A DNA stretch of 64,000 bases. It comes from a virus. A program made the translations under genes and the position numbers. The notes beneath the pieces were generated by a model that saw nothing but the letters and a program-made list of their open reading frames with translations, did no database searches and was not told the DNA's origin. Within the stretch, counting starts at the first letter, position 1. The number at the start of each line of letters is the position of its first letter. The stretch is from IMG/VR virus record IMGVR_UViG_3300025086_000013, positions 30,935 to 94,934 of that record. One strand, 5' to 3'. Of the stretch, positions 29,301-39,036 are shown in pieces.

Positions 29301-30373
29301 TGAGCTTGTGGAGACCATGCGCCTGACCATACATCATCAAATTTTCTTCTAGAGTGTAATCCAAATTCTGGTGATTCTTGATGAGAATAAGGAGAAGATG
29401 CTGAACTACTTACACCTCTTAAACCATCTTGTCTATATGGATTATATTTTTCCCAACCTAAATAATACTTACGGTCATTCATATTAATAGGATCTAATTT
29501 TAACGAATTAATATATTGATTATGAATTTTTCCATTTTCTAATTTAAGTTGTTTATATTCTGTCATTAAAGCATCTCTTTCAGATTTAGAAATATTTTTA
29601 TCAAATATTTTCATTCTAAGATTTTTAATTTTAGATGCATATTGCATACTTTCTTTACTTAATATAACATCATATTTTGAATCTTTTAATCTGTTATACA
29701 GTTGATAATCTCCTGTAAAAATTTTTGTTTCATTTGGATATTTAAATTGACCATAAAAATATGTATCATTTAATGAATTAGATCTAAGATTACCTGGATT
29801 AAGTTTCATAGCTCCATCCATTGGAAGATGTATAGTAGTTAGTGCATCATCCCAATTTCCTACATGATGATTTATAACTGAACTTCCACTTCCAGAAAAA
29901 TGTGTAGTACGTGCATTATTAATCAAGTTTCCATTTTGATCAAAATCTATATATCTTCCTTTATCTCGTCTTATTAAATTGCCTTCAAAAGGTTTTGTTT
30001 CATCTATAAAGTCAAATCTATTTCTTGAAATATTACCAGGCCCTTGCACATTAGATGTTGGATTTTGTTGCCCAGATGTTCCATAATTAGTAGTGTTTGG
30101 CTTTGGTTTTGGATTCCACCAATCTTTTATTTTAGAAATAATACCTTTTTTCTTTTTAGATCCTCCTCCTTGCATTAAAGGTACTTCAAATACTTCATTA
30201 CCAGGAAATATATAATCAGCACCAGGCATCATAATTTGACTATTACCAAGGTTATCAGTTCCTCTTACAGGAAAGTCTACACCTTTCATAGTTATATTAC
30301 CTGATGGTATTATATTATAGGGATTGTTTTTATCCTTGCTATTTCTTTTATATCCGTTTTTACTATATTTCAT
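23390..30373 (-). CDS. Multidomain virion-associated peptidoglycan-acting polyprotein, 2327 aa (two lysozyme/SLT-like domains, two LysM, YkuD L,D-transpeptidase-like domain, unknown domains)
   Basis: IIAVESANG...SSASGLYGQ (SLT-like); YKVKKGDNLTRIA and YTIQDGDYLGKIA (LysM); FLVVDK...SLHG...SYGCINM (YkuD); GIYGVESG...SVGWTQIKW...LMDPQKS (second SLT-like). Confidence 0.8.
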   Translation of the reverse strand: MKYSKNGYKRNSKDKNNPYNIIPSGNITMKGVDFPVRGTDNLGNSQIMMPGADYIFPGNEVFEVPLMQGGGSKKKKGIISKIKDWWNPKPKPNTTNYGTSGQQNPTSNVQGPGNISRNRFDFIDETKPFEGNLIRRDKGRYIDFDQNGNLINNARTTHFSGSGSSVINHHVGNWDDALTTIHLPMDGAMKLNPGNLRSNSLNDTYFYGQFKYPNETKIFTGDYQLYNRLKDSKYDVILSKESMQYASKIKNLRMKIFDKNISKSERDALMTEYKQLKLENGKIHNQYINSLKLDPINMNDRKYYLGWEKYNPYRQDGLRGVSSSASSPYSHQESPEFGLHSRRKFDDVWSGAWSPQAHQLDNIPTKSDLGLFQRRIDEYSKPELKEWLNKYENMPDNRGPFAPFMKNIVQEKLNTGKPLLDLNIYQKGGEDDDEKEEWEIKKYGANEKKYVPANDWTDYEEYDYKDKKYKRRYFDIERHELDNFLSYRGKSLFKDTKKHSQQAWPSLVHNTTGNMRVRENINDRGKKTYTLEYKGNSGWRTYARGNDQSGLANLNPEYVTDLKKKGKGSISQYSSWFDLTPEERKEYGREEWYQQGYQRDLRVNKQGKTWSGWNYYGDKTPLSYTLRDEDLYMLPGDIKQKYNLIGKDHLRLDPRTGEIDIVNDRGGIRFAVSQKDMKWFQNPGRLKQAFRDEGFNHKHDDLLDYISNPDFRYWRDSQTITLDPVTIDGMPTNPKTQLPQRSRFVPKPAGASYGSPPLTGDIPEIVLTPDMQNERDDYNSFVNTLPENLKTEDPNYNMEGLWEAMGKPKDFNQSKKSDYWGEEGWIPETYDNKYHGPSVGKDGWLLKSDKHDSFQNELDWLKSDDPGAEYQREHYDLVKDDSGYFGKNQWRYVPKISETVEELMGELQNTKQSSKINTSGQAILDATKREDYTSEDLIRDLDIFKNAYGQKNYEVLQKMLQKSEKPKAKYGAELVRFQKKGEVEPGMLAQRMRSSVTPIGYNIDHAFKELIAGEKLPFEWDGKTQTWDTFGENLNLPPEQSEYIKQSSQDLWDKYLGFEPENNTISESKFSPTIKGAIKKAKKYFSFNWDDDIWSDVLSYEFLKKRPKTENSKQEDNLYIKDSSSGGFAMNNYKLSKGYDEERKLPYVSYYDQFDFDIPMKGAFASAGWLFGEKGEDGSYTIPAEKIVGKPFELYGRMYYDPNNVDQNGNPVRIPQDRIDDYHVDYNKLKAGIIAVESANGQLLKNSESSASGLYGQRFSELTDNSLYDGSRDEFIADFEAQENTFKKRFDGSLFKGERGLKAAADEVYSEYSGQINMPFNKTELAALVNFLGRQGTREYLGYVVRDGKSLSEVFPSLYGENADQQNKTPEQYINHFRKSIEEYDKSSSYEDYILNNLPPEIVEKLLGDYTEEDVKEKQFEAGGEYEKNDKKIKTLQQQLKKYKEGGKVSGIVKDELFEYGLIDNDIPKLQDGGSVYKVKKGDNLTRIARSNDMTLEEVLELNPQYKSNPSHIRIDDSVKLKNESPSNNKKTPKLLYDDFKTFSEAFEKARENLGPNKIFDYRGNKFRTNLKGEAWTPTEADLENNGLNNGSTNDRIEIENTLVDSIYSDKNTPDYEDAVGPWRNIDRKINNNRDINKLQNVEKILFYEGENKPDETVEELSYTIQDGDYLGKIANENQTSIKQLLVDNGLSEDSTLYPGQNLIVKKPAGDPFLVVDKIAGKTHLYYPGQKDPTRSYNILIGENPGDQQTVTKPLDINKDGIINDDDKVWKNGKKLWTYDWSAGNMQTGAGIFTISNVDPDSGYWDETGQRRDVPSFNLTHDRMGEGENISMSLHGIPNTVNWEEKQQRKKGLYSHATDDNRQSYGCINMKCGDLNELLGTIKKGTNVYVLPEFKDQNTFIYQDGKLSFKGEVENPEHPETGEIGRNQGGWYFDSEDQVWREGQGIMRSAESIKYHPVSISIDKNKIQESNLDYNSYAAHEDMEFQKHTEPYLNAIVNNKKQILDALVKVNSGIPSDIYDMLIPTSFGIYGVESGMGNINPEILNMGLGISKASGIGNTNPDVNRKYHSWGQIGDIEIDYKGNKKKLSAKSSRDSVGWTQIKWDVALDDTEKELLNELGITSQHDLMDPQKSAIATQAIIAHRYNSRTDNFTAEQKSDQNYVRDYLAQTWNPERENYSKRVSNYYPLIDVYSLDIADVNQPGKVDVLGEYESSGFWKDVGNYILQPGAGNNNKPPEVHQTQNKIGSDNIYGIGTPKIKKGGAIKQNIPGGAFDLNTQIRIYNEYIDGKFDGTSDEKGVKKYIDKINRLYYTDAKKKGRHIYDHIRKL

Positions 30374-33300
30374 TATCTAAAGGATAGGTTAAGTTTTGTA
30401 TTAACTAATTTAAGTAACATTTTTCTTTGATGAAGAATAACTTCTCCAGGTTGGAAATGGAATTCGTCTATCCAAAAACCTTCAGTTTCTTCAACTCTTT
30501 TTCTAAGAATTAAGTTATTTACATAATGTCTAAATTTCTTTCTTTCTAATTGAGGTTTATTATAATCTAAATAAGCATCATTTAGATCTCTAATATAACC
30601 ATTTAATTGAGTTATAAACATTGACTCAGAAACATTTCTGTTTGAAGTTATATCCCAAAATTGATCAAATCTATATTTTTGTTCTACTTTACTATATAGT
30701 ATTTGAATGTCATTTGCACCAATTATTGGATAAGAAATTATATCATTTACATCAGGTGTTTGCTCTACAAGAGTTAACAACCCAGAAACTTGTTCTGTAT
30801 TATAAATAATAGCTTCATCAAAGTTATACATTAAATCATGCCATCTATCATCACATCCATAATTTAATGCACAGCCTTCGTCATCTAATTGTACTTTGTA
30901 TTCAAAAGCTTCCATTTGATATTCAACACTTCTTACTGTATTAACCGCTTGACCTACAGATTCTACAAGTTCAATTTCCCATGGATATTGTATATCATAA
31001 TAATTATTAAATAAATCACAACGTACATTATGTTTCCATAAACTGCTTGATTCAGTTACAGGAAATACTTGTGGTGCAATATTAAATTCATCTTCACAAA
31101 TTCTTATTTTACATTCTACACCTATTGTTGACTCTTGTTCATTAAATATTGTTAAACAATCTATTTCTTCTGCTGGATCCCATGTTCCTATAAAATACAT
31201 ATCATAACCTTCTGGACACTCACATGTTAATGCTGTTAGTTCTATTCCAGTAGTACCACCAGGATCTACTATTTCAGTTATTGGATCATCAGTTGAGCAT
31301 TCTAAACAACCTTCATCAAGAGCATCTTGTAAAGTAGGTTCAAGTCTTTGATCTATAACTACAGGGTGAAATTCCCAAGGAAATTCAAAATCTCCTGTAC
31401 CTATACCCCATTGACCATAACCCATAATTGTTGCATATTGAACATTTGAATAAAAGTTAGCTGTATCAGGTGGTATATTACCTGGGGGATCAAAACATCC
31501 AGGTGCTTCAATTGGATCTTCATTATCATCTAATTCACCAGCATCCCATGCTTCATATGTTTCTATATAAGTATCTTGATATGAATTTAAAGTATCTAAA
31601 GGACCTCCAAAAAATCCAAAATCAGGATCTGGATCATATGCAGTACAAGAATGAGTATGAGATGCACCAAGGTTATGTCCTATCTCATGCATTACAACTT
31701 TAAAAGACCAAGATGAATCAAAATCAGAATTTAAAAATCCTTCAGGATTAAATTCTATATTTTGACTTAAAGGTGCAGCAATACCATAAGCTCCTGGAGT
31801 TGATTCACAATAATCTGGTGATACATCATGGTTACATACTCCACCTATACCCCATGCTTGACCACCTTCAAGAACTTCATCATTCATACTAAATATATAT
31901 ACTAAACTTCTGTCAACTGCAATTAAATCTGGATCTGTTGTCCACTCAGCAATAAGAGTTTGTAAATAACAAGTTCTAATTTTATGAATACTACCATTAT
32001 CACAACCACCACAAGGAAAAGACATTGAAAAATTATCATTTAATGTCCATATACGAAGATAATTAAGTGTCACCTGTGTATCTAATTGATCTTCATATAC
32101 TTCACTAACTCCAGCTATAATCATAGTCACCCAATCTGTAAGTGCATTAATATTATCTGCTTCATCACCATTATTAAATTCTTCATAAGTATACTTATCA
32201 ATTTCAATTGCCATTTTAATACAACCTCCAGTTGAAGATCTAGCTTGTTTTGCAGATGCTTTTCTTGCTGCTTTTGTAATATCATCAGTGGTTGCACAAT
32301 CAAATATTGGAATTCGTTTTGAATCAAATGTATTATATAAAATATATTTAGTTTTATCTTTACTTGCTTTCTTTTTAACATCTGAATCTTCAACAGTAAA
32401 TTCATAAATTTTCTTACCCTTTCTAATTACTCCAAACATTTTAGTTTCCATAAATGTTATAGATCCTTTTAAATCTTTTTCTCCACGAATTTTATATGAA
32501 ACTGCTTTAGATACATATGGATCTTTCACTCTTCCTTTTTCTGTTTCTAAAACTACTTGAAAATCTTTTGAATGTACATTGACAAGTTCTAATGGTAATT
32601 TAAGAGTTTGGTTATCCATAAAAGGAACAGTTATACTAAATCTTTTAGGCTTTGATAATCTAATGTCTTTAAGTATACTATCTTCTATTTCAAAGTAAAT
32701 AGAATTATTTTTATTTTTTGTTACACTTGCATTTTCAATATGTATTCTATTAAATGGTGGCATATCATCACCATCATCTATAATGGCAAAATCAAATGTA
32801 AAATCAGGAGTTCCTTGACCATAATTACCACCATATTCAACTTTACAACATTGTGGAGGATCTAATGTTTCATCAAGTTCATAACCAGGACCACACTCCC
32901 AAGTTGCATCATTTATACACATACCAAATTCATCCATAGTATACCCTGGAGGACATATTGGATCCAATCCTTTTATTGTATTAGTTGTAAGAAAATGATT
33001 ATAACTAGACATAGTAAGTTCAGGATGCCAATCATGAAATGATATCCATCCTTTAATCTTAGGGTCATAACTTACCGTCCAGGATATATCTGTAAAAAAC
33101 TCATTATTTTCTAAATCAACAGGTGTTATAACATCTATATAAGGAGCAGGATCACATATTCTTTCTACACACTCTACACATTCACCTTCACATTCTATAC
33201 AGTCTTGTTCTGTTGCAGGAAAAGGAGTTCCAGTAAAAAATAAATCTCCTTGAGGACAATCACAAGCAAATACTGGATCAGGTACTGGTGGTTGAAAATT

Positions 33301-36300
33301 ATCTACAGAAACATAAGTAGAAGAAGTTAGTGGGTTATTAGGATAATTACTTCTACATCGTATTGTAAGATAAGGCCATGGTCCACCATAAGGCATAAAT
33401 ACATATGGAATTTGTGTACTTCCATTCATGCTAGCCCAAGTATTCCATTCATATGGTTCAGGACCATCTGGTTGTAAATTAACTCTTATAGGAAAGTCCT
33501 CAGATCCTGTTTGTGCTCCTATTGTAGAATCATCATCTATTCCGTGATAATCAGTTATAGTTCCATTTATACCATCTACAGCTGGAGATATCCATAATAA
33601 TTCACCTAGATCACAGGAACTCTGACTTCCCCAAATTTCTATACCCATTTCATGATTTAAATCATAAGTAATATTAGCTATTGTATAATAAGTTTTATGA
33701 CCTTCTTCACTTATAACATAATAACCAACTGTATCTGGAGGACCTCCTAAAGCTATAGTTCCTCGGTAAACAACACCTGGTTGTAAATCTGTAGGATTTC
33801 CAGCAGTATCTAGCATTGGAGTACTAACATGTTCTACCCAACCAGCATGATTTGTAACTAATGAAAGATATGATTGTCCCTGAACTGCTGGCCAATCAGG
33901 ATACTCTGTATCTAATTCTTCATCATAACCACCACCAACTGTCCAGTTACCTGGTTGTATGTCTGGTGTAAGAAAACCACATACTTCCCAATATTGTGCC
34001 ATTGACGTAGACGGATCACCCCAATCATTAAAGTAAGTACTATATTCTTCAGGTTCTTCTCTAAGTCCATAAGCAAGAACGTGTGAACCATTTCCAGTTA
34101 GTGGTCCCATCCAATTAGATGTTGGTGGAGTTCCATCAGTACCACTTGTACCTATACCTGGTTCATATTTCCACATGTCACTTGTAGAACCATATCTTTG
34201 TTCTGATATAGTCCATGGTGGCCATATTAAAGGCCAATTTCCTGGTACACCAAAATCATCCATAGTGTATTCCCATGAAGGATTTTGAACAATTATAGTT
34301 TCTGCTGCTTCAAGATCTTGATAATAATTTGCCTCATAGTAATTAAAAGTACAACACTCATCTGTTTCTGGATCATACTCTGTACCTTCTGGACAATCTG
34401 GAACTTGTGCTACACCATAACATTCTGTTTCATTAATAACTAATCCTAATTCTTCATCAAACTCTATACATTCTGGATTACATGGTTCATAATCTTTTTT
34501 AGAAAAATAAACTATATCATAGTTAGGATCATATACAGATTGAACACCTATACCAAATACAGGATTATCTGCATAATCAGTTCCTTCTAATTCAGGATAT
34601 GCGGCTAATAATCTAGATGGCAAATATTTATTAAACCATTGTTTTAATCCTGCATCTGCAATATTTGTAAGACCTTGTGCATAATTAAATATTTTACCTT
34701 GAGCTTGTGATATATAAAATACACCTGAAGGAGTATTAATAGCACTAAGTGAATCTTCACATGATCCATATTCATGTGGAAGATCAGCTGTAGTTATTTG
34801 TTGCATTGGTTCATTAAATAAACCACCATCTCCAATAGAAAGTTTAGTTTCAAAATCTGTTGTTAGAGTATCAACACCTTGAAATAATTGAGGAGCTAAA
34901 TGAGGAAATAATATAAGAGCTCCAGATTTAGAAACAGGTTTAATTGTGCTTGGTGCATTTTTAAAGTCTTTATAATTATTTGGAAGATATACTCTCCAAA
35001 AATCTTTTTTAGCTTCATTAAATGCTTGTAATGAATATATAACTCTTTTTGGATAATGTTTAAAACAATTATCTGCAACAGAAGGATCATAATCTCTAGG
35101 TTGTATAGTACCATAAGTAATCATTTGACTATTTAAGTTAGACTTACTTAATGAATCATCATACTTATAGAAGTTACCTTCTTTAATTATATCAACATGA
35201 AATAATTGATCAATGTCTGTATAGTTTGTCCAGTCATAATGTTTTTCTTTTCTGTCTCCACCATAATCTCTATATCCCATATTAAGTTCTGATTCTACAA
35301 AGAAATCATTTACACCACTACAATGAGTATACATATATGCTGTTTTATGTATAAAGAAATTAAATTGAGTACCAGCACCAGGAGCTCCAGAACCAAAACT
35401 CCAATCACCAGATCCAATCTCTGTAGTAGCGTCACCTGCATCACTACCTGGTATATCTAAGTTATGTAGAGTTGAAGGTATTCCACCTGCAGTCCAGTTA
35501 AATGAAAAGTTTAAAAGTGGAGATATCATATTAATCATATCAAACTTTGTCATGTCCATCCAGTGTCTTGCATAAGGAACATTTTGATAATTTTGATACT
35601 GAAAAGGAAATTCATCTGGTTCATTATCTTTTAAAAATTGCCAAAAGAATGGCATTATAACTTTTTCATTATATCTGTTTAAATATACATCTCCTCCAAA
35701 TAAACAATCTGATACATACGTATCATCTTCTTGAGGTATAAATAATCCACGTTCATTATAAATTTCTGCACAATCACCTTGATTTGGTGTCCATTCAGTT
35801 CCAGAACCAGTTGCAGGACCAGGTACAAAACCTTCTTCTCCTGGTTGCAAAACTTTAGCATCTTTAAAACATTGTATACATGGAATAGGTAATTGTTTAA
35901 TACCATCTAATTGTCCATATTGATTTTGCATATTAAATTTAAGAGCTACATAATGTGCAGCAATTAAAGAACTATAATGACCTCCAGTAGGATTACCATA
36001 AATCCCATCACCAAATGCACCAGAAAGTGTACTTAATGTTTGTCTTGAAGTATCAAGCCAACCACCAAAAGGATTCACAAGTTCATTCATTGATATAGGA
36101 TTACCAACTTGATTACCTTGTGTTTGTAAAACAACAGTTGATGGTCTAAATAAATTGTTTATTCTCATGTTATCAGCTGTAAACTCAGAACCAAAATCTT
36201 GTATTGTATTACCAACATATCCTGATTTACCTAATCTGTTTCTAAATACTAATCCATTTGCCCTAGGGATTTCAGTACCATAAAGACCATAAGAATTATA

Positions 36301-39036
36301 TTTAAGAGCATGTGGTTTTGGTGAAGAAAGATTTATAACTAAATCTACAACTTCTTGACCACCTACTGCTACATAATTTAAAGTTGAAAATATTGTAGTT
36401 GCAATTGCCATTAAGTTAGGTAAAGCTTTATAGTTAGTTCCTTTAAACTCTACAGTTCTACCTGGACCAATGTGTCCTGGTGTAAGAGCTGCAGCAGCTT
36501 CTTCTGCTACTTGAACACTACCCATGTATTGAACTTCACCACCTCCTGGACCTAAAGGAAGAGGAAGATCAAGTCCAATAGCAGATAAAGTAAAATTAGT
36601 TTCTGAAAGTTGATTTACACCTTCAGCAGTGACTGATGCTGCAGCTCCTGCTACAGAAGCAGCCATTGTATTTGATGCTCCTGGAGAAATTAATGGTAGT
36701 CCTAGTCCACCAGCCCCACCTGTTATTGATGTTGAGGCATCTACAAGAGCAAATGGTGCAGTTGCAGGCGTTAAAGACGTAATACCAGGTGCTCCTGCTA
36801 AAACACCAGGTAATGGAGGTATTACAGGAGTAGTAGTAATTCCACCCCATGAAGGGTTTTTTCCATCATCTGCTTGTCTAGTTTTTTCAATTTTTTCAAT
36901 TCTTTCACCACGCATTTGATTAATAGCATAACCTACACCAATTATAGCTGCAATGATTGCGGTAAAGTCACGTATTATTGTATTCTTTGGATGTTTTTCT
37001 GCTGTAACAAAATGTCCTTGCTGTCTACCAGCATGAACACCATAACTTTTAATTTCATAAGGATTTAAATAAGGTCTTTTAAATGATGTTTCTGGTGAAT
37101 GAAAAGTAAAAAAATTATTACATGTTGCATAATTTGCACCACCATTTCCACAACTTGTAAAACCTAAAGAGTTCCCAGCTCCATTATCACCCCAAGATAG
37201 AGTTCCATTATCAGTTGTTACTAGATATGGATCTACACCAGGAGAATTATAAGGGTAGTTTGGTATAAGACCTGTTGTACCAATTAATGTAGGGTTATCA
37301 GCACCAGAGTTTCCATCAGCAGGAATAGAATAGTTTCTCATACTCCTTACCATACCTTTTGCCATTATAGATTTATTACCTTGTCTTGAACCTACAAGTA
37401 TTTCATATCCTACAATATTTCTTATAAGAGAACCATCAAAATTTCTTGGCCATGTAATGTTATCAAACTCAACACCTAATACACGTATTCTTTGATTGTC
37501 TACATTAGATTTAAAAACACTACCATCTGTTTGTTCATCTGGAAATTTATGATGTCTAATTGGTGTACCACATAATTCACCCCATCTTCCATTTGGATCT
37601 GTACTAGGATATAACTCTGTAGATTCCCAATATCCCATACTACCCTTTGCTATTATTGTACCACCATCATCTGTAACAGGATTAACAAAAGGACCAAAGT
37701 CATCAGCAACAGCTGTATTATGTGTTTGCCAAAATTCAGTTTCTGTTGCGTCTATAACATTATTACCATCTGCTATTGCTGAATCTGTAGCATTTTTATC
37801 TCTACCTGGTATATGATATGATTCAGATTTTTCTCCTGTAGAATAAATAAACCTTATAAAAAATGAATATTGTTCATCTCTCATAAATGTAGGTTTATTA
37901 CCACCTTTTTTATAATAGTCTGCTGGATATTCTACAGAAACCCATCTAGCACCTATGTGGTTTGCTTGAGGTTGATAATTAAAATCATACTGACTTGTTG
38001 GTCCTATTCTAAGAAGATAGTCATTAAGAGCTATCATTTTATCAGATCTTTCAAAAGCAGGATTTCTTAATGATAGTTGTGAAAATGGAACAGAACCTGC
38101 TTTTGCTGTAGCTTCATTTATATAATCAATATTTATTGATGTTTGTCTTGTACTATATAATCCAACTAATCTTCCTTGTATTTGTTGTTGATTATTAGAT
38201 AATATTACTAATTTAAAAAAATCAAAATTTGTATCTAAATTGCTTATTTCTATATCTAGTGAACAAGCAGTATCATCATGTTCCCATAAAGGTTGTATAT
38301 TTGAAACTCCAATATAATCACCTATTTGTTGTTCGTTTACAGTATATGCAATAAAAGCTTGATATGATCCATTCTTTAATAAACCTCCACTTGGAGATTT
38401 AGAAAGTTTTATACATGGAGTTTTCATTAAAGGTGCTAAACGTATAAGATCACAATCAAGTTGTAATGGATCAGCATTTTCATATACCCAACATGGCTCT
38501 CCTTGTCCTCCTTCTTCTTCCGGACCTGCAACTAGTGTTTGTATCCAAGGTACATTAATGTTTTCTGTAATTCTATCAGCAGGACCTAAATTAAGAGTTC
38601 TAGAAGGATTTCTTCCATCATCCCAATATACTTGCCAAGAACAATCAAAATTTTCTTTAGAGGCTCCTGTAATAAGATTAACTTTATTAAAGTCTAAACA
38701 TTGATCATTAATTAAAGTAGTATATTCACATCTGCTATCATCAAAATAACCTATTTCACTACTTTGATTATCTGTAGAATATATTATCCAGCTATCACCA
38801 AATAGATTAATAAAGCCAATTATAGTATAATCAACACTAATACAATTTAAATTTGCAGGTTCATTACCTATTGTACCAGCATCACCTTTTGCAGAATTGT
38901 TTATACAATTTCTGCAATGAACCCAATTTTCTTGCCCCACAAAACTATCATGGGCATCTTTTGTCATACCTTTGACAAACAGATCCGTATCAATACTAGA
39001 AGTATCTTGAGGTTGTGAATTTTGTCCTTTTGCCAT
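30373..39036 (-). CDS. Tail muzzle / stabilisation protein (P22 gp10-like position), 2887 aa, with large insertions including a reprolysin-like (M12B/M84-type) metzincin
   Basis: Core motifs typical of crAss-like stabilisation proteins (F.KGM.KD start, VYWDDGRNPSR, FMRDEQYSF, WTVSYDP...WISFHDW, LWKHN). Located downstream of the IHF-like and ring genes. HEIGHNLGASH at 31657-31689 plus Met-turn ATIMGY. Confidence 0.8.
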   Translation of the reverse strand: MAKGQNSQPQDTSSIDTDLFVKGMTKDAHDSFVGQENWVHCRNCINNSAKGDAGTIGNEPANLNCISVDYTIIGFINLFGDSWIIYSTDNQSSEIGYFDDSRCEYTTLINDQCLDFNKVNLITGASKENFDCSWQVYWDDGRNPSRTLNLGPADRITENINVPWIQTLVAGPEEEGGQGEPCWVYENADPLQLDCDLIRLAPLMKTPCIKLSKSPSGGLLKNGSYQAFIAYTVNEQQIGDYIGVSNIQPLWEHDDTACSLDIEISNLDTNFDFFKLVILSNNQQQIQGRLVGLYSTRQTSINIDYINEATAKAGSVPFSQLSLRNPAFERSDKMIALNDYLLRIGPTSQYDFNYQPQANHIGARWVSVEYPADYYKKGGNKPTFMRDEQYSFFIRFIYSTGEKSESYHIPGRDKNATDSAIADGNNVIDATETEFWQTHNTAVADDFGPFVNPVTDDGGTIIAKGSMGYWESTELYPSTDPNGRWGELCGTPIRHHKFPDEQTDGSVFKSNVDNQRIRVLGVEFDNITWPRNFDGSLIRNIVGYEILVGSRQGNKSIMAKGMVRSMRNYSIPADGNSGADNPTLIGTTGLIPNYPYNSPGVDPYLVTTDNGTLSWGDNGAGNSLGFTSCGNGGANYATCNNFFTFHSPETSFKRPYLNPYEIKSYGVHAGRQQGHFVTAEKHPKNTIIRDFTAIIAAIIGVGYAINQMRGERIEKIEKTRQADDGKNPSWGGITTTPVIPPLPGVLAGAPGITSLTPATAPFALVDASTSITGGAGGLGLPLISPGASNTMAASVAGAAASVTAEGVNQLSETNFTLSAIGLDLPLPLGPGGGEVQYMGSVQVAEEAAAALTPGHIGPGRTVEFKGTNYKALPNLMAIATTIFSTLNYVAVGGQEVVDLVINLSSPKPHALKYNSYGLYGTEIPRANGLVFRNRLGKSGYVGNTIQDFGSEFTADNMRINNLFRPSTVVLQTQGNQVGNPISMNELVNPFGGWLDTSRQTLSTLSGAFGDGIYGNPTGGHYSSLIAAHYVALKFNMQNQYGQLDGIKQLPIPCIQCFKDAKVLQPGEEGFVPGPATGSGTEWTPNQGDCAEIYNERGLFIPQEDDTYVSDCLFGGDVYLNRYNEKVIMPFFWQFLKDNEPDEFPFQYQNYQNVPYARHWMDMTKFDMINMISPLLNFSFNWTAGGIPSTLHNLDIPGSDAGDATTEIGSGDWSFGSGAPGAGTQFNFFIHKTAYMYTHCSGVNDFFVESELNMGYRDYGGDRKEKHYDWTNYTDIDQLFHVDIIKEGNFYKYDDSLSKSNLNSQMITYGTIQPRDYDPSVADNCFKHYPKRVIYSLQAFNEAKKDFWRVYLPNNYKDFKNAPSTIKPVSKSGALILFPHLAPQLFQGVDTLTTDFETKLSIGDGGLFNEPMQQITTADLPHEYGSCEDSLSAINTPSGVFYISQAQGKIFNYAQGLTNIADAGLKQWFNKYLPSRLLAAYPELEGTDYADNPVFGIGVQSVYDPNYDIVYFSKKDYEPCNPECIEFDEELGLVINETECYGVAQVPDCPEGTEYDPETDECCTFNYYEANYYQDLEAAETIIVQNPSWEYTMDDFGVPGNWPLIWPPWTISEQRYGSTSDMWKYEPGIGTSGTDGTPPTSNWMGPLTGNGSHVLAYGLREEPEEYSTYFNDWGDPSTSMAQYWEVCGFLTPDIQPGNWTVGGGYDEELDTEYPDWPAVQGQSYLSLVTNHAGWVEHVSTPMLDTAGNPTDLQPGVVYRGTIALGGPPDTVGYYVISEEGHKTYYTIANITYDLNHEMGIEIWGSQSSCDLGELLWISPAVDGINGTITDYHGIDDDSTIGAQTGSEDFPIRVNLQPDGPEPYEWNTWASMNGSTQIPYVFMPYGGPWPYLTIRCRSNYPNNPLTSSTYVSVDNFQPPVPDPVFACDCPQGDLFFTGTPFPATEQDCIECEGECVECVERICDPAPYIDVITPVDLENNEFFTDISWTVSYDPKIKGWISFHDWHPELTMSSYNHFLTTNTIKGLDPICPPGYTMDEFGMCINDATWECGPGYELDETLDPPQCCKVEYGGNYGQGTPDFTFDFAIIDDGDDMPPFNRIHIENASVTKNKNNSIYFEIEDSILKDIRLSKPKRFSITVPFMDNQTLKLPLELVNVHSKDFQVVLETEKGRVKDPYVSKAVSYKIRGEKDLKGSITFMETKMFGVIRKGKKIYEFTVEDSDVKKKASKDKTKYILYNTFDSKRIPIFDCATTDDITKAARKASAKQARSSTGGCIKMAIEIDKYTYEEFNNGDEADNINALTDWVTMIIAGVSEVYEDQLDTQVTLNYLRIWTLNDNFSMSFPCGGCDNGSIHKIRTCYLQTLIAEWTTDPDLIAVDRSLVYIFSMNDEVLEGGQAWGIGGVCNHDVSPDYCESTPGAYGIAAPLSQNIEFNPEGFLNSDFDSSWSFKVVMHEIGHNLGASHTHSCTAYDPDPDFGFFGGPLDTLNSYQDTYIETYEAWDAGELDDNEDPIEAPGCFDPPGNIPPDTANFYSNVQYATIMGYGQWGIGTGDFEFPWEFHPVVIDQRLEPTLQDALDEGCLECSTDDPITEIVDPGGTTGIELTALTCECPEGYDMYFIGTWDPAEEIDCLTIFNEQESTIGVECKIRICEDEFNIAPQVFPVTESSSLWKHNVRCDLFNNYYDIQYPWEIELVESVGQAVNTVRSVEYQMEAFEYKVQLDDEGCALNYGCDDRWHDLMYNFDEAIIYNTEQVSGLLTLVEQTPDVNDIISYPIIGANDIQILYSKVEQKYRFDQFWDITSNRNVSESMFITQLNGYIRDLNDAYLDYNKPQLERKKFRHYVNNLILRKRVEETEGFWIDEFHFQPGEVILHQRKMLLKLVNTKLNLSFR

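What the first reader, a model, noticed from the sequence alone, without database searches (positions are those of the whole stretch)
31096..34395. Duplicated Cys-rich outgoing/return stalk cassette displaying interchangeable domains on the tail muzzle
Seen: two inserts interrupt the conserved muzzle C-terminal core on either side of WTVSYDP...WISFHDW. Each starts with an outgoing arm (CPEGTEYDPETDECC, 34351-34395; CPPGY...CGPGYELDETLDPPQCC, 32845-32955). Each ends with a homologous return arm (CDCPQG..FFTGTPFPATEQDC...VECVERIC, 33154-33264; CECPEG..YFIGTWDPAEEIDC...VECKIRIC, 31096-31224). The enclosed payloads are unrelated. Inference: a disulfide-stapled two-stranded stalk that works as a reusable socket for host-derived domains at the tail tip. 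I know of no description of this.
Basis: partly seen in the sequence, partly recalled or inferred. Interest (0 to 1): 0.85.

Follow-up and report, generated by a model that had tools for sequence, protein, structure and literature searches.

The report
Swappable display cassettes in phage muzzle
The tail-end "muzzle" protein of this uncultured marine crAss-like phage has two loops where related phages swap whole folded domains in and out (adhesion modules, a protease, unknown domains), each held between small cysteine-rich entry and exit pieces, so this is probably an exchangeable host-contact kit, though neither the disulfide bonds nor any function has been tested.

Summary

- **Insertion sites.** 65 full-length homologues (1677-3089 aa) show two insertion hot spots flanking a conserved 41-aa piece.
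- **Site states.** Site A is 30-93 aa with 0-2 Cys, or 364-862 aa and Cys-rich. Site B is 10 aa, an arms-only module of about 140 aa, or 362-728 aa.
- **Arms.** The query's two return arms are homologous (E 2e-8). Its payloads are unrelated: an orphan beta-rich domain and a pro-M12 metzincin.
- **Shared return arm.** It brackets at least four unrelated payload families, at either site. It occurs only in this muzzle clade (6 hits in 1.84 billion representatives).
- **Turnover.** Sister phages carry different cassettes, so exchange is fast.

A reusable socket fits. Disulfide pairing is only inferred, from Cys co-loss and high pLDDT of the site-A arms. The sites lie in the C-terminal beta-propeller, not the distal crass domain. 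"Host-derived" is unsupported. The arms are hairpin modules, not two strands.

The scan noted the same system earlier on other genomes. The searched literature reports only length variation from insertions in the crass and IG2 domains. I rate it a new variant of a known kind.

The parts
30373..39036 (-). Muzzle protein gene, 2887 aa (P0001)
   Evidence: Single ORF. Pfam crAss_MUZ PF25731 scores 65.9 bits against a cut-off of 27. A model of the C-terminal region of homologue L054 matches the crAss001 muzzle 7qol_P / 7qok_A.
34486..39036 (-). Conserved N-terminal core, aa 1-1517 (ring-joining, propeller start, IG/crass-type region, propeller blades). Ends with the blade motif YDPNYDIVYFSKKDY.
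   Evidence: About 40-58% identical in 65 homologues. hhalign places its end at about gp44 residue 1200.
34420..34485 (-). Site-A entry hairpin, aa 1518-1539 (three Cys, at 1519, 1523 and 1539). Corresponds to a Cys-free hairpin in uninserted homologues.
   Evidence: pLDDT about 90.
34351..34395 (-). Out-arm A, aa 1548-1562, pattern CPxG-x9-CC (type 1)
   Evidence: pLDDT about 95.
33265..34350 (-). Payload A, aa 1563-1924: orphan beta-rich domain ('beta2')
   Evidence: Homologous payloads occur in L008 and L072 at site A and in L001, L067 and L073 at site B. No Pfam family. No relatives outside muzzle proteins. Not folded confidently (pLDDT about 30).
33154..33264 (-). Return arm A, aa 1925-1961: CxCPxG..PATxxDC..C..CxxxxC, plus one extra Cys pair
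   Evidence: pLDDT 89-95.
32977..33099 (-). Conserved middle piece, aa 1980-2020 (SWTVSYDPKIKGWISFHDW...): propeller-blade strands between the two sites
   Evidence: Nearly invariant across the family. Repeats the YDP....F.D blade motif of the preceding blade (sequence reading).
32917..32955 (-). Site-B entry hairpin, aa 2028-2040, CPPGY-x7-C. Present in nearly all site-B cassettes of any type.
   Evidence: pLDDT about 90.
32845..32895 (-). Out-arm B, aa 2048-2064, CGPGY-x10-CC (type 1)
32227..32844 (-). Payload B, first half, aa 2065-2270: prodomain-like beta region. Ends with a Cys conserved in all four homologues (IFDC, aa 2244-2247).
   Evidence: Alignment of four M12 cassettes.
31225..32226 (-). 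Payload B, second half, aa 2271-2604: M12 (reprolysin-like) metallopeptidase. HEIGHNLGASH at 31657-31689; candidate Met-turn TIMGY at 31417-31431.
   Evidence: Pfam Reprolysin_5 at 54.9-57.9 bits against a cut-off of 27. The motif is conserved in L008, L072 and L079.
31096..31224 (-). Return arm B, aa 2605-2647: canonical 5-Cys type-1 arm
   Evidence: Low pLDDT, about 35.
30376..31044 (-). Conserved C-terminal core, aa 2665-2887
   Evidence: 48-79% identical in homologues.

Best explanation
This is the muzzle (tail-end nozzle) protein of an uncultured marine crAss-like phage.

**Where the sites are.** Two loops at equivalent positions after two consecutive blades of its C-terminal beta-propeller are insertion hot spots.

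**What a cassette is.** Each insert has three parts:
- a small Cys-rich hairpin at the entry (CPxG...C or CC);
- a folded passenger domain;
- a Cys-rich exit module (type 1: CxCPxG..PATxxDC..C..CxxxxC).

**What this phage carries.** Site A holds an orphan beta-rich domain. Site B holds a pro-form M12 zinc protease.

**What is shown.**
- Relatives leave the sites empty, fill them with arms only, or fill them with vWA (MIDAS) adhesion domains, the beta domain, the protease or other unknown domains.
- The same passenger families occur at either site.
- Sister phages differ in their cassettes.

**What is inferred.**
- After oxidation the arms form a disulfide-knotted pedestal. It brings the passenger's two ends together so the propeller blade can still close.
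- The pedestal holds six copies of each passenger around the muzzle. There they would bind or digest host surface structures during adsorption.
- Recombination in the conserved flanks, and at the CPxGY entry motif, exchanges cassettes and so changes adsorption properties.
For: - **Insertion sites and length classes:**
- **Cys patterns conserved in the arms:**
- **Return arms A and B homologous:** E 2e-8.
- **Payload families and their occurrence at both sites:**. The beta domain is at site A in the query, L008, L072 and L165, and at site B in L001, L067, L073 and L165. M12 is at site A in L079 and at site B in the query, L008 and L072. vWA accounts for 13 site-A and 115 site-B cassettes.
- **Type-1 arms with a further unknown payload (L216_A):**
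- **Arms-only cassettes in at least six lineages:**
- **Fast turnover on the core tree:** L008 against L073, L004 against L002, and L054/L011 nested among vWA forms.
- **Breakpoints:**
- **Propeller location:**
- **Cys co-loss pointing to specific disulfides:** out-arm CC with the fifth return Cys; O3 with R1 and R2 with R4 in vWA cassettes.
- **Fold confidence:** AF2 gives pLDDT 86-95 to the out-arm and 89-95 to the return arm of site A although the payload between them is unmodelled. The arms-only module scores about 80.
- **Precedent:** disulfides occur in the crAss001 tail (PMC10172136).
Against: - No coordinates or contacts were available, so pairing and disulfides are not shown.
- Return arm B has low pLDDT.
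- Many cassettes have an odd Cys count, so not every Cys can be paired.
- In vWA cassettes the co-loss data suggest only one inter-arm bond; the rest lie within the return module.
- The return arm type goes with the payload type, not with the site. The return arm is replaced together with the payload. The socket is therefore less fixed than the word suggests.
- A cultured distant relative, Cellulophaga phage phi17:2 gp043, has a vWA-like insert at site A with no Cys arms. The arms are not required for display.
- No functional data exist.
Confidence: 0.68

Rival explanations
1. The arms are a free-standing Cys-rich surface domain with its own role, structural or receptor-binding. Passengers are later nested insertions into it, and any socket behaviour is a by-product.
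For: - Arms-only modules of 131-163 aa with 8-14 Cys persist in several divergent lineages.
- They fold with pLDDT about 80.
- Passengers can sit at more than one position inside the return module: L220_B carries vWA plus beta2, and L191_B carries two vWA domains.
Against: - Empty forms are a minority (about 9 of about 140 distinct site-B cassettes).
- Some are nested within vWA-bearing clades, which suggests payload loss.
- Type-1 arms have not been seen empty.
- This reading overlaps the main one rather than excluding it.
Confidence: 0.18
2. The Cys clusters bind metal (zinc knuckles) instead of forming disulfides. Phage proteins fold in a reducing cytoplasm.
For: - The query's return arm A has CxxC-x3-CxxC.
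- Virion proteins fold in the cytoplasm (general knowledge).
Against: - The CxxC pairs are not conserved in homologous arms.
- The conserved patterns are CC, CxC and CxxxxC, which are typical of disulfide-rich extracellular modules, with no His (sequence reading).
- Cys are lost in pairs.
- The crAss001 tail has real disulfides.
Confidence: 0.08
3. There is no shared adaptor. Each Cys-rich end is simply part of its own passenger domain, and the likeness of the two return arms is convergence or chance.
For: - The return arm type correlates with the payload class: type 1 goes with beta2, M12 and fam5, and another type goes with vWA.
- The payload and its return arm are replaced together.
Against: - One arm family (E 2e-8 within the query; profile alignment) brackets four payload families with no mutual similarity.
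- Arms exist without a payload.
- The arm profile finds only muzzle proteins.
Confidence: 0.06

Closest known systems
Muzzle protein gp44 of Bacteroides phage crAss001 (PDB 7QOK/7QOL; Pfam PF25731; Bayfield et al. 2023, PMC10172136)
   Same: - Same protein family (Pfam hit).
- Same C-terminal propeller fold.
- A hexameric tail-end gatekeeper, according to the paper.
- The paper already notes length variation from insertions that may change surface properties, and disulfides in the tail.
   Different: - The paper places the insertions in the crass and IG2 domains. Here the two hot spots are in the C-terminal propeller part.
- gp44 (1371 aa) has no Cys-rich cassettes.
- Sequence similarity is so low that phmmer and profile searches of the PDB miss it.
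- Neither the cassette architecture nor payload exchange is described there.
Integrin alpha-subunit I domain (a vWA domain inserted between blades of a seven-bladed beta-propeller) and the integrin beta PSI/hybrid/beta-I nested insertions on a Cys-rich EGF stalk (textbook knowledge)
   Same: - A vWA/MIDAS domain is inserted in a loop of a beta-propeller.
- The profile of the commonest passenger in relatives hits integrin alpha1 and alpha2 I domains (E 2e-5 to 3e-4).
- Cys-rich modules act as supports.
   Different: - No homology of the propeller or the arms is implied.
- This window's protein carries a protease and an orphan domain, not vWA.
- The phage sites are exchangeable between relatives.
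'Evolved' distal tail (Dit) and Tal proteins of lactococcal and other siphophages, with carbohydrate-binding modules inserted in loops (from my own knowledge, not checked here)
   Same: Accessory host-binding domains are inserted into loops of a conserved tail-tip structural protein, and are present or absent between relatives.
   Different: - A different protein fold and phage type.
- No conserved Cys-rich brackets.
- No protease passengers that I know of.
EGF-like, furin-like and other Cys-rich repeat modules, and ADAM/reprolysin proteases with Cys-rich C-terminal domains
   Same: - The local motif CxCPxG[YF], and small disulfide-type hairpins.
- An M12 catalytic domain followed by a Cys-rich module.
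   Different: - Pfam EGF and cEGF scores are below their cut-offs.
- The spacing after CxCPxG is 18-27 residues, not 4-8.
- The arm profile finds no EGF proteins among 1.84 billion representatives.
- The same arm also follows non-protease passengers.

Membership tests
Crassvirus muzzle protein (Pfam PF25731 crAss_MUZ) | Pfam model matched above the gathering score | tested here: met
   65.9 bits against a cut-off of 27, E 2.7e-18. Three stretches; the best covers aa 17-278.
Crassvirus muzzle protein (Pfam PF25731 crAss_MUZ) | C-terminal beta-propeller of the nozzle type, as in gp44 and T7 gp12 | tested here: met
   The model is of homologue L054's C-terminal region. Foldseek: 7qol_P E 5.6e-9. 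VIA: Z 10.8, 272 residues aligned, rmsd 15.9, to gp44 residues 1052-1371. GP4 nozzle: Z 9.6, rmsd 2.4, 135 residues aligned. hhalign: E 6.4e-5, probability 64%.
Crassvirus muzzle protein (Pfam PF25731 crAss_MUZ) | Hexamer closing the end of the tail | not testable with these tools
   Needs virion cryo-EM.
EGF-like domain (Pfam PF00008, PF12662) | Pfam score above the cut-off, and the six-Cys pattern with C-x-C-x2-[GP]-[FYW]-x(4,8)-C | tested here: not met
   EGF scores 14.3 bits against 21.5. cEGF scores 19.2 against 26.6. The spacing to the next Cys is 18-27 residues.
M12 metzincin (Pfam PF13688 Reprolysin_5), for payload B | Pfam score above the cut-off, and the zinc motif HExxHxxGxxH | tested here: met
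   54.9-57.9 bits against 27. HEIGHNLGASH at aa 2450-2460. The motif is kept in three homologous payloads.
M12 metzincin (Pfam PF13688 Reprolysin_5), for payload B | Met-turn, and a latency prodomain with a cysteine switch | tested here: inconclusive
   TIMGY at aa 2536-2540 aligns with TIMSY and TLMSY, but with GILSY in L079. A conserved Cys (aa 2247) ends a region of about 200 aa upstream. No structure was obtained.
vWA / integrin I-type domain (passenger in relatives, not in this window) | Profile match to vWA, and the MIDAS motif DxSxS | tested here: met
   Pfam VWA for L002_A, L001_A, L065_A and L220_B. The profile of 28 site-B cassettes hits integrin alpha1/alpha2 I domains and mussel PTMP1 (E 3e-6 to 3e-4). 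D-x-S-G-S is nearly invariant.
   Indirect evidence only: Cys co-loss and pLDDT 86-95 for the site-A arms. No coordinates or contacts could be read.

The most novel reading that the evidence does not exclude
A clade of marine crAss-like phages has evolved a private Cys-rich adaptor. It makes two propeller loops of the tail nozzle tolerant to insertion of almost any folded domain. This gives a natural domain-display platform on the virion, whose cassettes are traded between phages to retune host contact. Passengers include adhesins, an orphan beta domain and a zymogen-type metzincin, singly, in tandem or absent.
Probability: 0.5. Interest if true: 0.72.

Novelty: new variant of a known kind. 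Interest (0 to 1): 0.6.

Why it matters
**Host contact in crAss-like phages.** The muzzle is the part of a crAss-like virion thought to touch the cell first. How these abundant phages recognise hosts is largely unknown.

**What this adds.** A pair of defined, exchangeable display sites would give:
- a concrete handle on host-range evolution in marine Crassvirales;
- a catalogue of candidate adsorption modules, among them a virion-borne zinc protease and several domains with no relatives anywhere;
- a natural template for inserting foreign domains into a phage tail without breaking assembly.

**Scale.** The family is large: at least 530 stretches in IMG/VR and at least 560 in metagenomes. The pattern can therefore be studied statistically.

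Tried and rejected
- **Complex prediction** of out-arm B (alignment A5) against the type-1 return arm (A6): score 0.25 against a mark of 0.32. No verdict, so it is not used as evidence either way.
- **AF2 of query aa 1505-2700:** mean pLDDT 44.7 and payloads unmodelled. No fold could be assigned to payload A or the prodomain-like region. A VIA wide search on that model gave only weak matches (best Z 5.4; ADAM catalytic domains Z 3.5-3.7) and nothing for the arms.
- **phmmer and profile searches of the PDB** with the whole protein or family gave nothing significant. The profile of beta2 cassettes found only a chance nanobody hit.
- **ESM Atlas:** no usable hit for the arms-only module or for payload A.
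- **Homologue searches for payload A:** none as a single sequence. One hit with the profile, and that is a muzzle fragment matching through the arms.
- **DNA repeats between the two cassettes:** none beyond chance, so this is not a recent duplication.
- **Recent acquisition from a host:** rejected on composition. GC3 is 0.07-0.12 in payloads and core alike.
- **Parity of Cys counts as proof of pairing:** rejected, because many cassettes have odd totals.
- **Single-linkage BLAST clustering of the enlarged set:** it merged families through tandem cassettes. I replaced it with HMM annotation.
- **Literature searches** for a description of Cys-rich brackets or of vWA or protease inserts in crass muzzle proteins found none.
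Full report
**What is in the window.** The finding lies inside a single 2887-aa ORF on the minus strand (30373-39036). Pfam assigns it to the crassvirus muzzle family (crAss_MUZ, 65.9 bits against a cut-off of 27). Pfam also finds an M12 reprolysin-like peptidase at aa 2274-2463. The record is a 94.9-kb virus contig. It has 31% G+C, and all its large genes are on one strand. The nearest cultured relatives are distant: Leptolyngbya phage Lbo-JY46 and Cellulophaga phages phi17:2 and phi4:1, at about 25% identity.

**Check of the observation.** The two return arms align at 43% identity over 46 residues, E 2e-8. The two payloads share nothing (best E 1.7). The arms hold 14% Cys and the conserved core 1.3%. 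No DNA-level repeat links the two cassettes, so the duplication is old.

**Are they insertions?** A scan of IMG/VR gave 79 loci with 65 full-length homologues of 1677-3089 aa. Three blocks are conserved: query aa 1-1520, 1970-2040 and 2660-2887.
- The shortest homologues (about 1680 aa) join the blocks almost directly.
- Site A is either 30-93 aa with 0-2 Cys, or 364-862 aa with 11-33 Cys.
- Site B is 10 aa with no Cys, 138-141 aa with 10 Cys, or 362-728 aa with 11-31 Cys.

**The arms.**
- All site-B cassettes open with the hairpin CPPGY-x(7-8)-C.
- Site-A cassettes open after a hairpin that exists, without Cys, in uninserted relatives.
- The query's type of cassette ('type 1') then has CPxG-x(9-17)-CC. 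It closes with C-x-C-P-x-G ... P-A-T-x-x-D-C ... C-x4-C. Four Cys columns are invariant and a fifth nearly so in 11 arms.
- The commonest cassette in relatives (vWA) has a different exit module of about 90 aa with eight conserved Cys.
- A profile of the type-1 return arm, searched against 1.84 billion representative proteins, found only six proteins. The three short ones were read directly and carry muzzle core motifs; the three long ones match muzzle homologues. The arm is private to this clade. It is not a general EGF-type domain, and the Pfam EGF and cEGF scores are below their cut-offs.

**The passengers.** I clustered and then annotated with HMMs about 170 distinct cassettes from three scans.
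- Site A: vWA 13, the query's beta-rich orphan domain ('beta2') 4, fam4 6, M12 1, fam5 1, unknown 1, and short forms.
- Site B: vWA 115, beta2 4, M12 3, unknown 5, one vWA+beta2 tandem, one vWA+vWA tandem, and 9 arms-only forms.
- The vWA assignment rests on Pfam hits. It also rests on profile hits to integrin alpha1/alpha2 I domains (E 2e-5 to 3e-4) with a nearly invariant DxSGS motif.
- Three families occur at both sites.
- Type-1 arms bracket beta2, M12, fam5 (a four-Cys variant) and the unknown 671-aa L216_A cassette.
- Arms-only modules occur in at least six lineages that are only about 40-60% identical to one another. A hairpin-only form also exists at site A (L190_A).

**The query's own passengers.**
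- Payload A (aa 1563-1924) has conserved motifs shared with five relatives. It has no Pfam family, no PDB relative, no Atlas look-alike and no homologue outside muzzle proteins.
- Payload B has a region of about 200 aa ending in a conserved Cys, followed by a catalytic domain with HEIGHNLGASH and a candidate Met-turn. The zinc motif and the upstream Cys are kept in all four M12 cassettes; the Met is replaced by Leu in L079. This looks like a pro-metzincin, but latency and activity are untested.
- GC3 is 0.07-0.12 in passengers and core alike. Nothing points to recent capture from a host.

**Turnover.** On a tree of the conserved core three patterns stand out.
- The sisters L008 (beta2 | M12) and L073 (fam5 | beta2) differ at both sites.
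- L004 (fam4 | vWA) sits next to L002 (vWA | vWA).
- The arms-only forms L054 and L011 sit among vWA forms.

Pairwise alignments show that identity runs through the entry hairpin up to CPxGY and then collapses. It returns only after the exit module. The swapped unit is therefore usually the passenger plus its return arm. The word 'socket' fits the entry side and the site better than it fits the exit arm.

**Where on the virion.**
- An AF2 model of the C-terminal 647 aa of L054 (mean pLDDT 69.7) matches the crAss001 muzzle best. Foldseek gives E 5.6e-9. VIA gives Z 10.8 over 272 residues at rmsd 15.9, to gp44 residues 1052-1371.
- It also matches podovirus nozzle proteins and generic beta-propellers.
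- hhalign puts the end of the N-terminal core (VYFxKKDY) at about gp44 residue 1200 (E 6.4e-5, probability 64%).
- That motif (YDP....VYF.KD) recurs in the middle piece (YDPKxKAWISFHDW). I therefore read the two sites as equivalent loops following two consecutive blades. This is an inference.
- According to the crAss001 paper, the propeller lies above the IG and crass domains (PMC10172136). 'Tail tip' is thus imprecise.
- The same paper already reports length variation of muzzle proteins through insertions, but in the crass and IG2 domains. It also reports disulfides in the tail.

**Do the arms pair and form disulfides?** This is not shown.
- In favour: both arms of site A get pLDDT 86-95, although the 360 residues between them are unmodelled.
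- In favour: the arms-only module gets about 80.
- In favour: Cys are lost in pairs. The only type-1 cassettes whose out-arm ends in C rather than CC (L073_A, P0002_A) also lack the fifth return Cys. In vWA cassettes, O3 is lost with R1 (L037/L076, L040, L079) and R2 with R4 (four lineages). Arms-only forms lack exactly O3 and R1. This fits a clasp around the vWA domain.
- Against, or limiting: return arm B has low pLDDT. Many cassettes have odd Cys totals. Most bonds suggested by co-loss lie within the exit module. Cellulophaga phage phi17:2 gp043 has a vWA-like insert at site A with no Cys at all.

**Verdict.**
- Well supported: a modular, rapidly exchanged cassette system at two propeller loops, with clade-private Cys-rich brackets.
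- Not established: the disulfide-stapled two-stranded stalk, the tail-tip position and the host origin of the passengers.
- Earlier notes of this scan describe the same system on other genomes.
- The papers I could search do not describe it.

Noticed in passing
L008:9115-11298 and L072:8797-10767 (site-B cassettes): Between the M12 domain and the return arm, these relatives carry one to several copies of a repeat of about 23 aa: GCTDP-x-A-x-NY-x(3)-A-x-DDGSC-x-Y. The query lacks it.
   Followed up: no
window 32296-32307 (aa 2244-2247) and the whole site-B payload: A Cys at the end of the prodomain-like region is conserved in all four M12 cassettes. The query's payload B has an odd number of Cys (11). 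This would fit a cysteine-switch zymogen, which is speculative.
   Followed up: partly
L082:3401-10270 (Cellulophaga phage phi17:2 gp043): A cultured distant relative has an insert of about 290 aa, vWA-like by a DxTxS motif, at the equivalent of site A. It has no Cys-rich arms and no insert at site B.
   Followed up: partly
L220:4745-7000 and L191:4586-7000: These are tandem passengers within one cassette: vWA followed by beta2, and two vWA domains. The second passenger is nested inside the vWA-type return module.
   Followed up: partly
L005, L007, L033, L052: The four homologues with no insert at either site form one clade nested inside vWA-bearing lineages. This suggests secondary loss of the whole site-B cassette, arms included.
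   Followed up: no
window 30373-39036: Third-position G+C is only 0.07-0.12 throughout the gene.
   Followed up: no
window 2-30373: Five further very large ORFs lie downstream on the same strand (2327, 1364, 963, 1142 and at least 4283 aa). They were not examined here.
   Followed up: no
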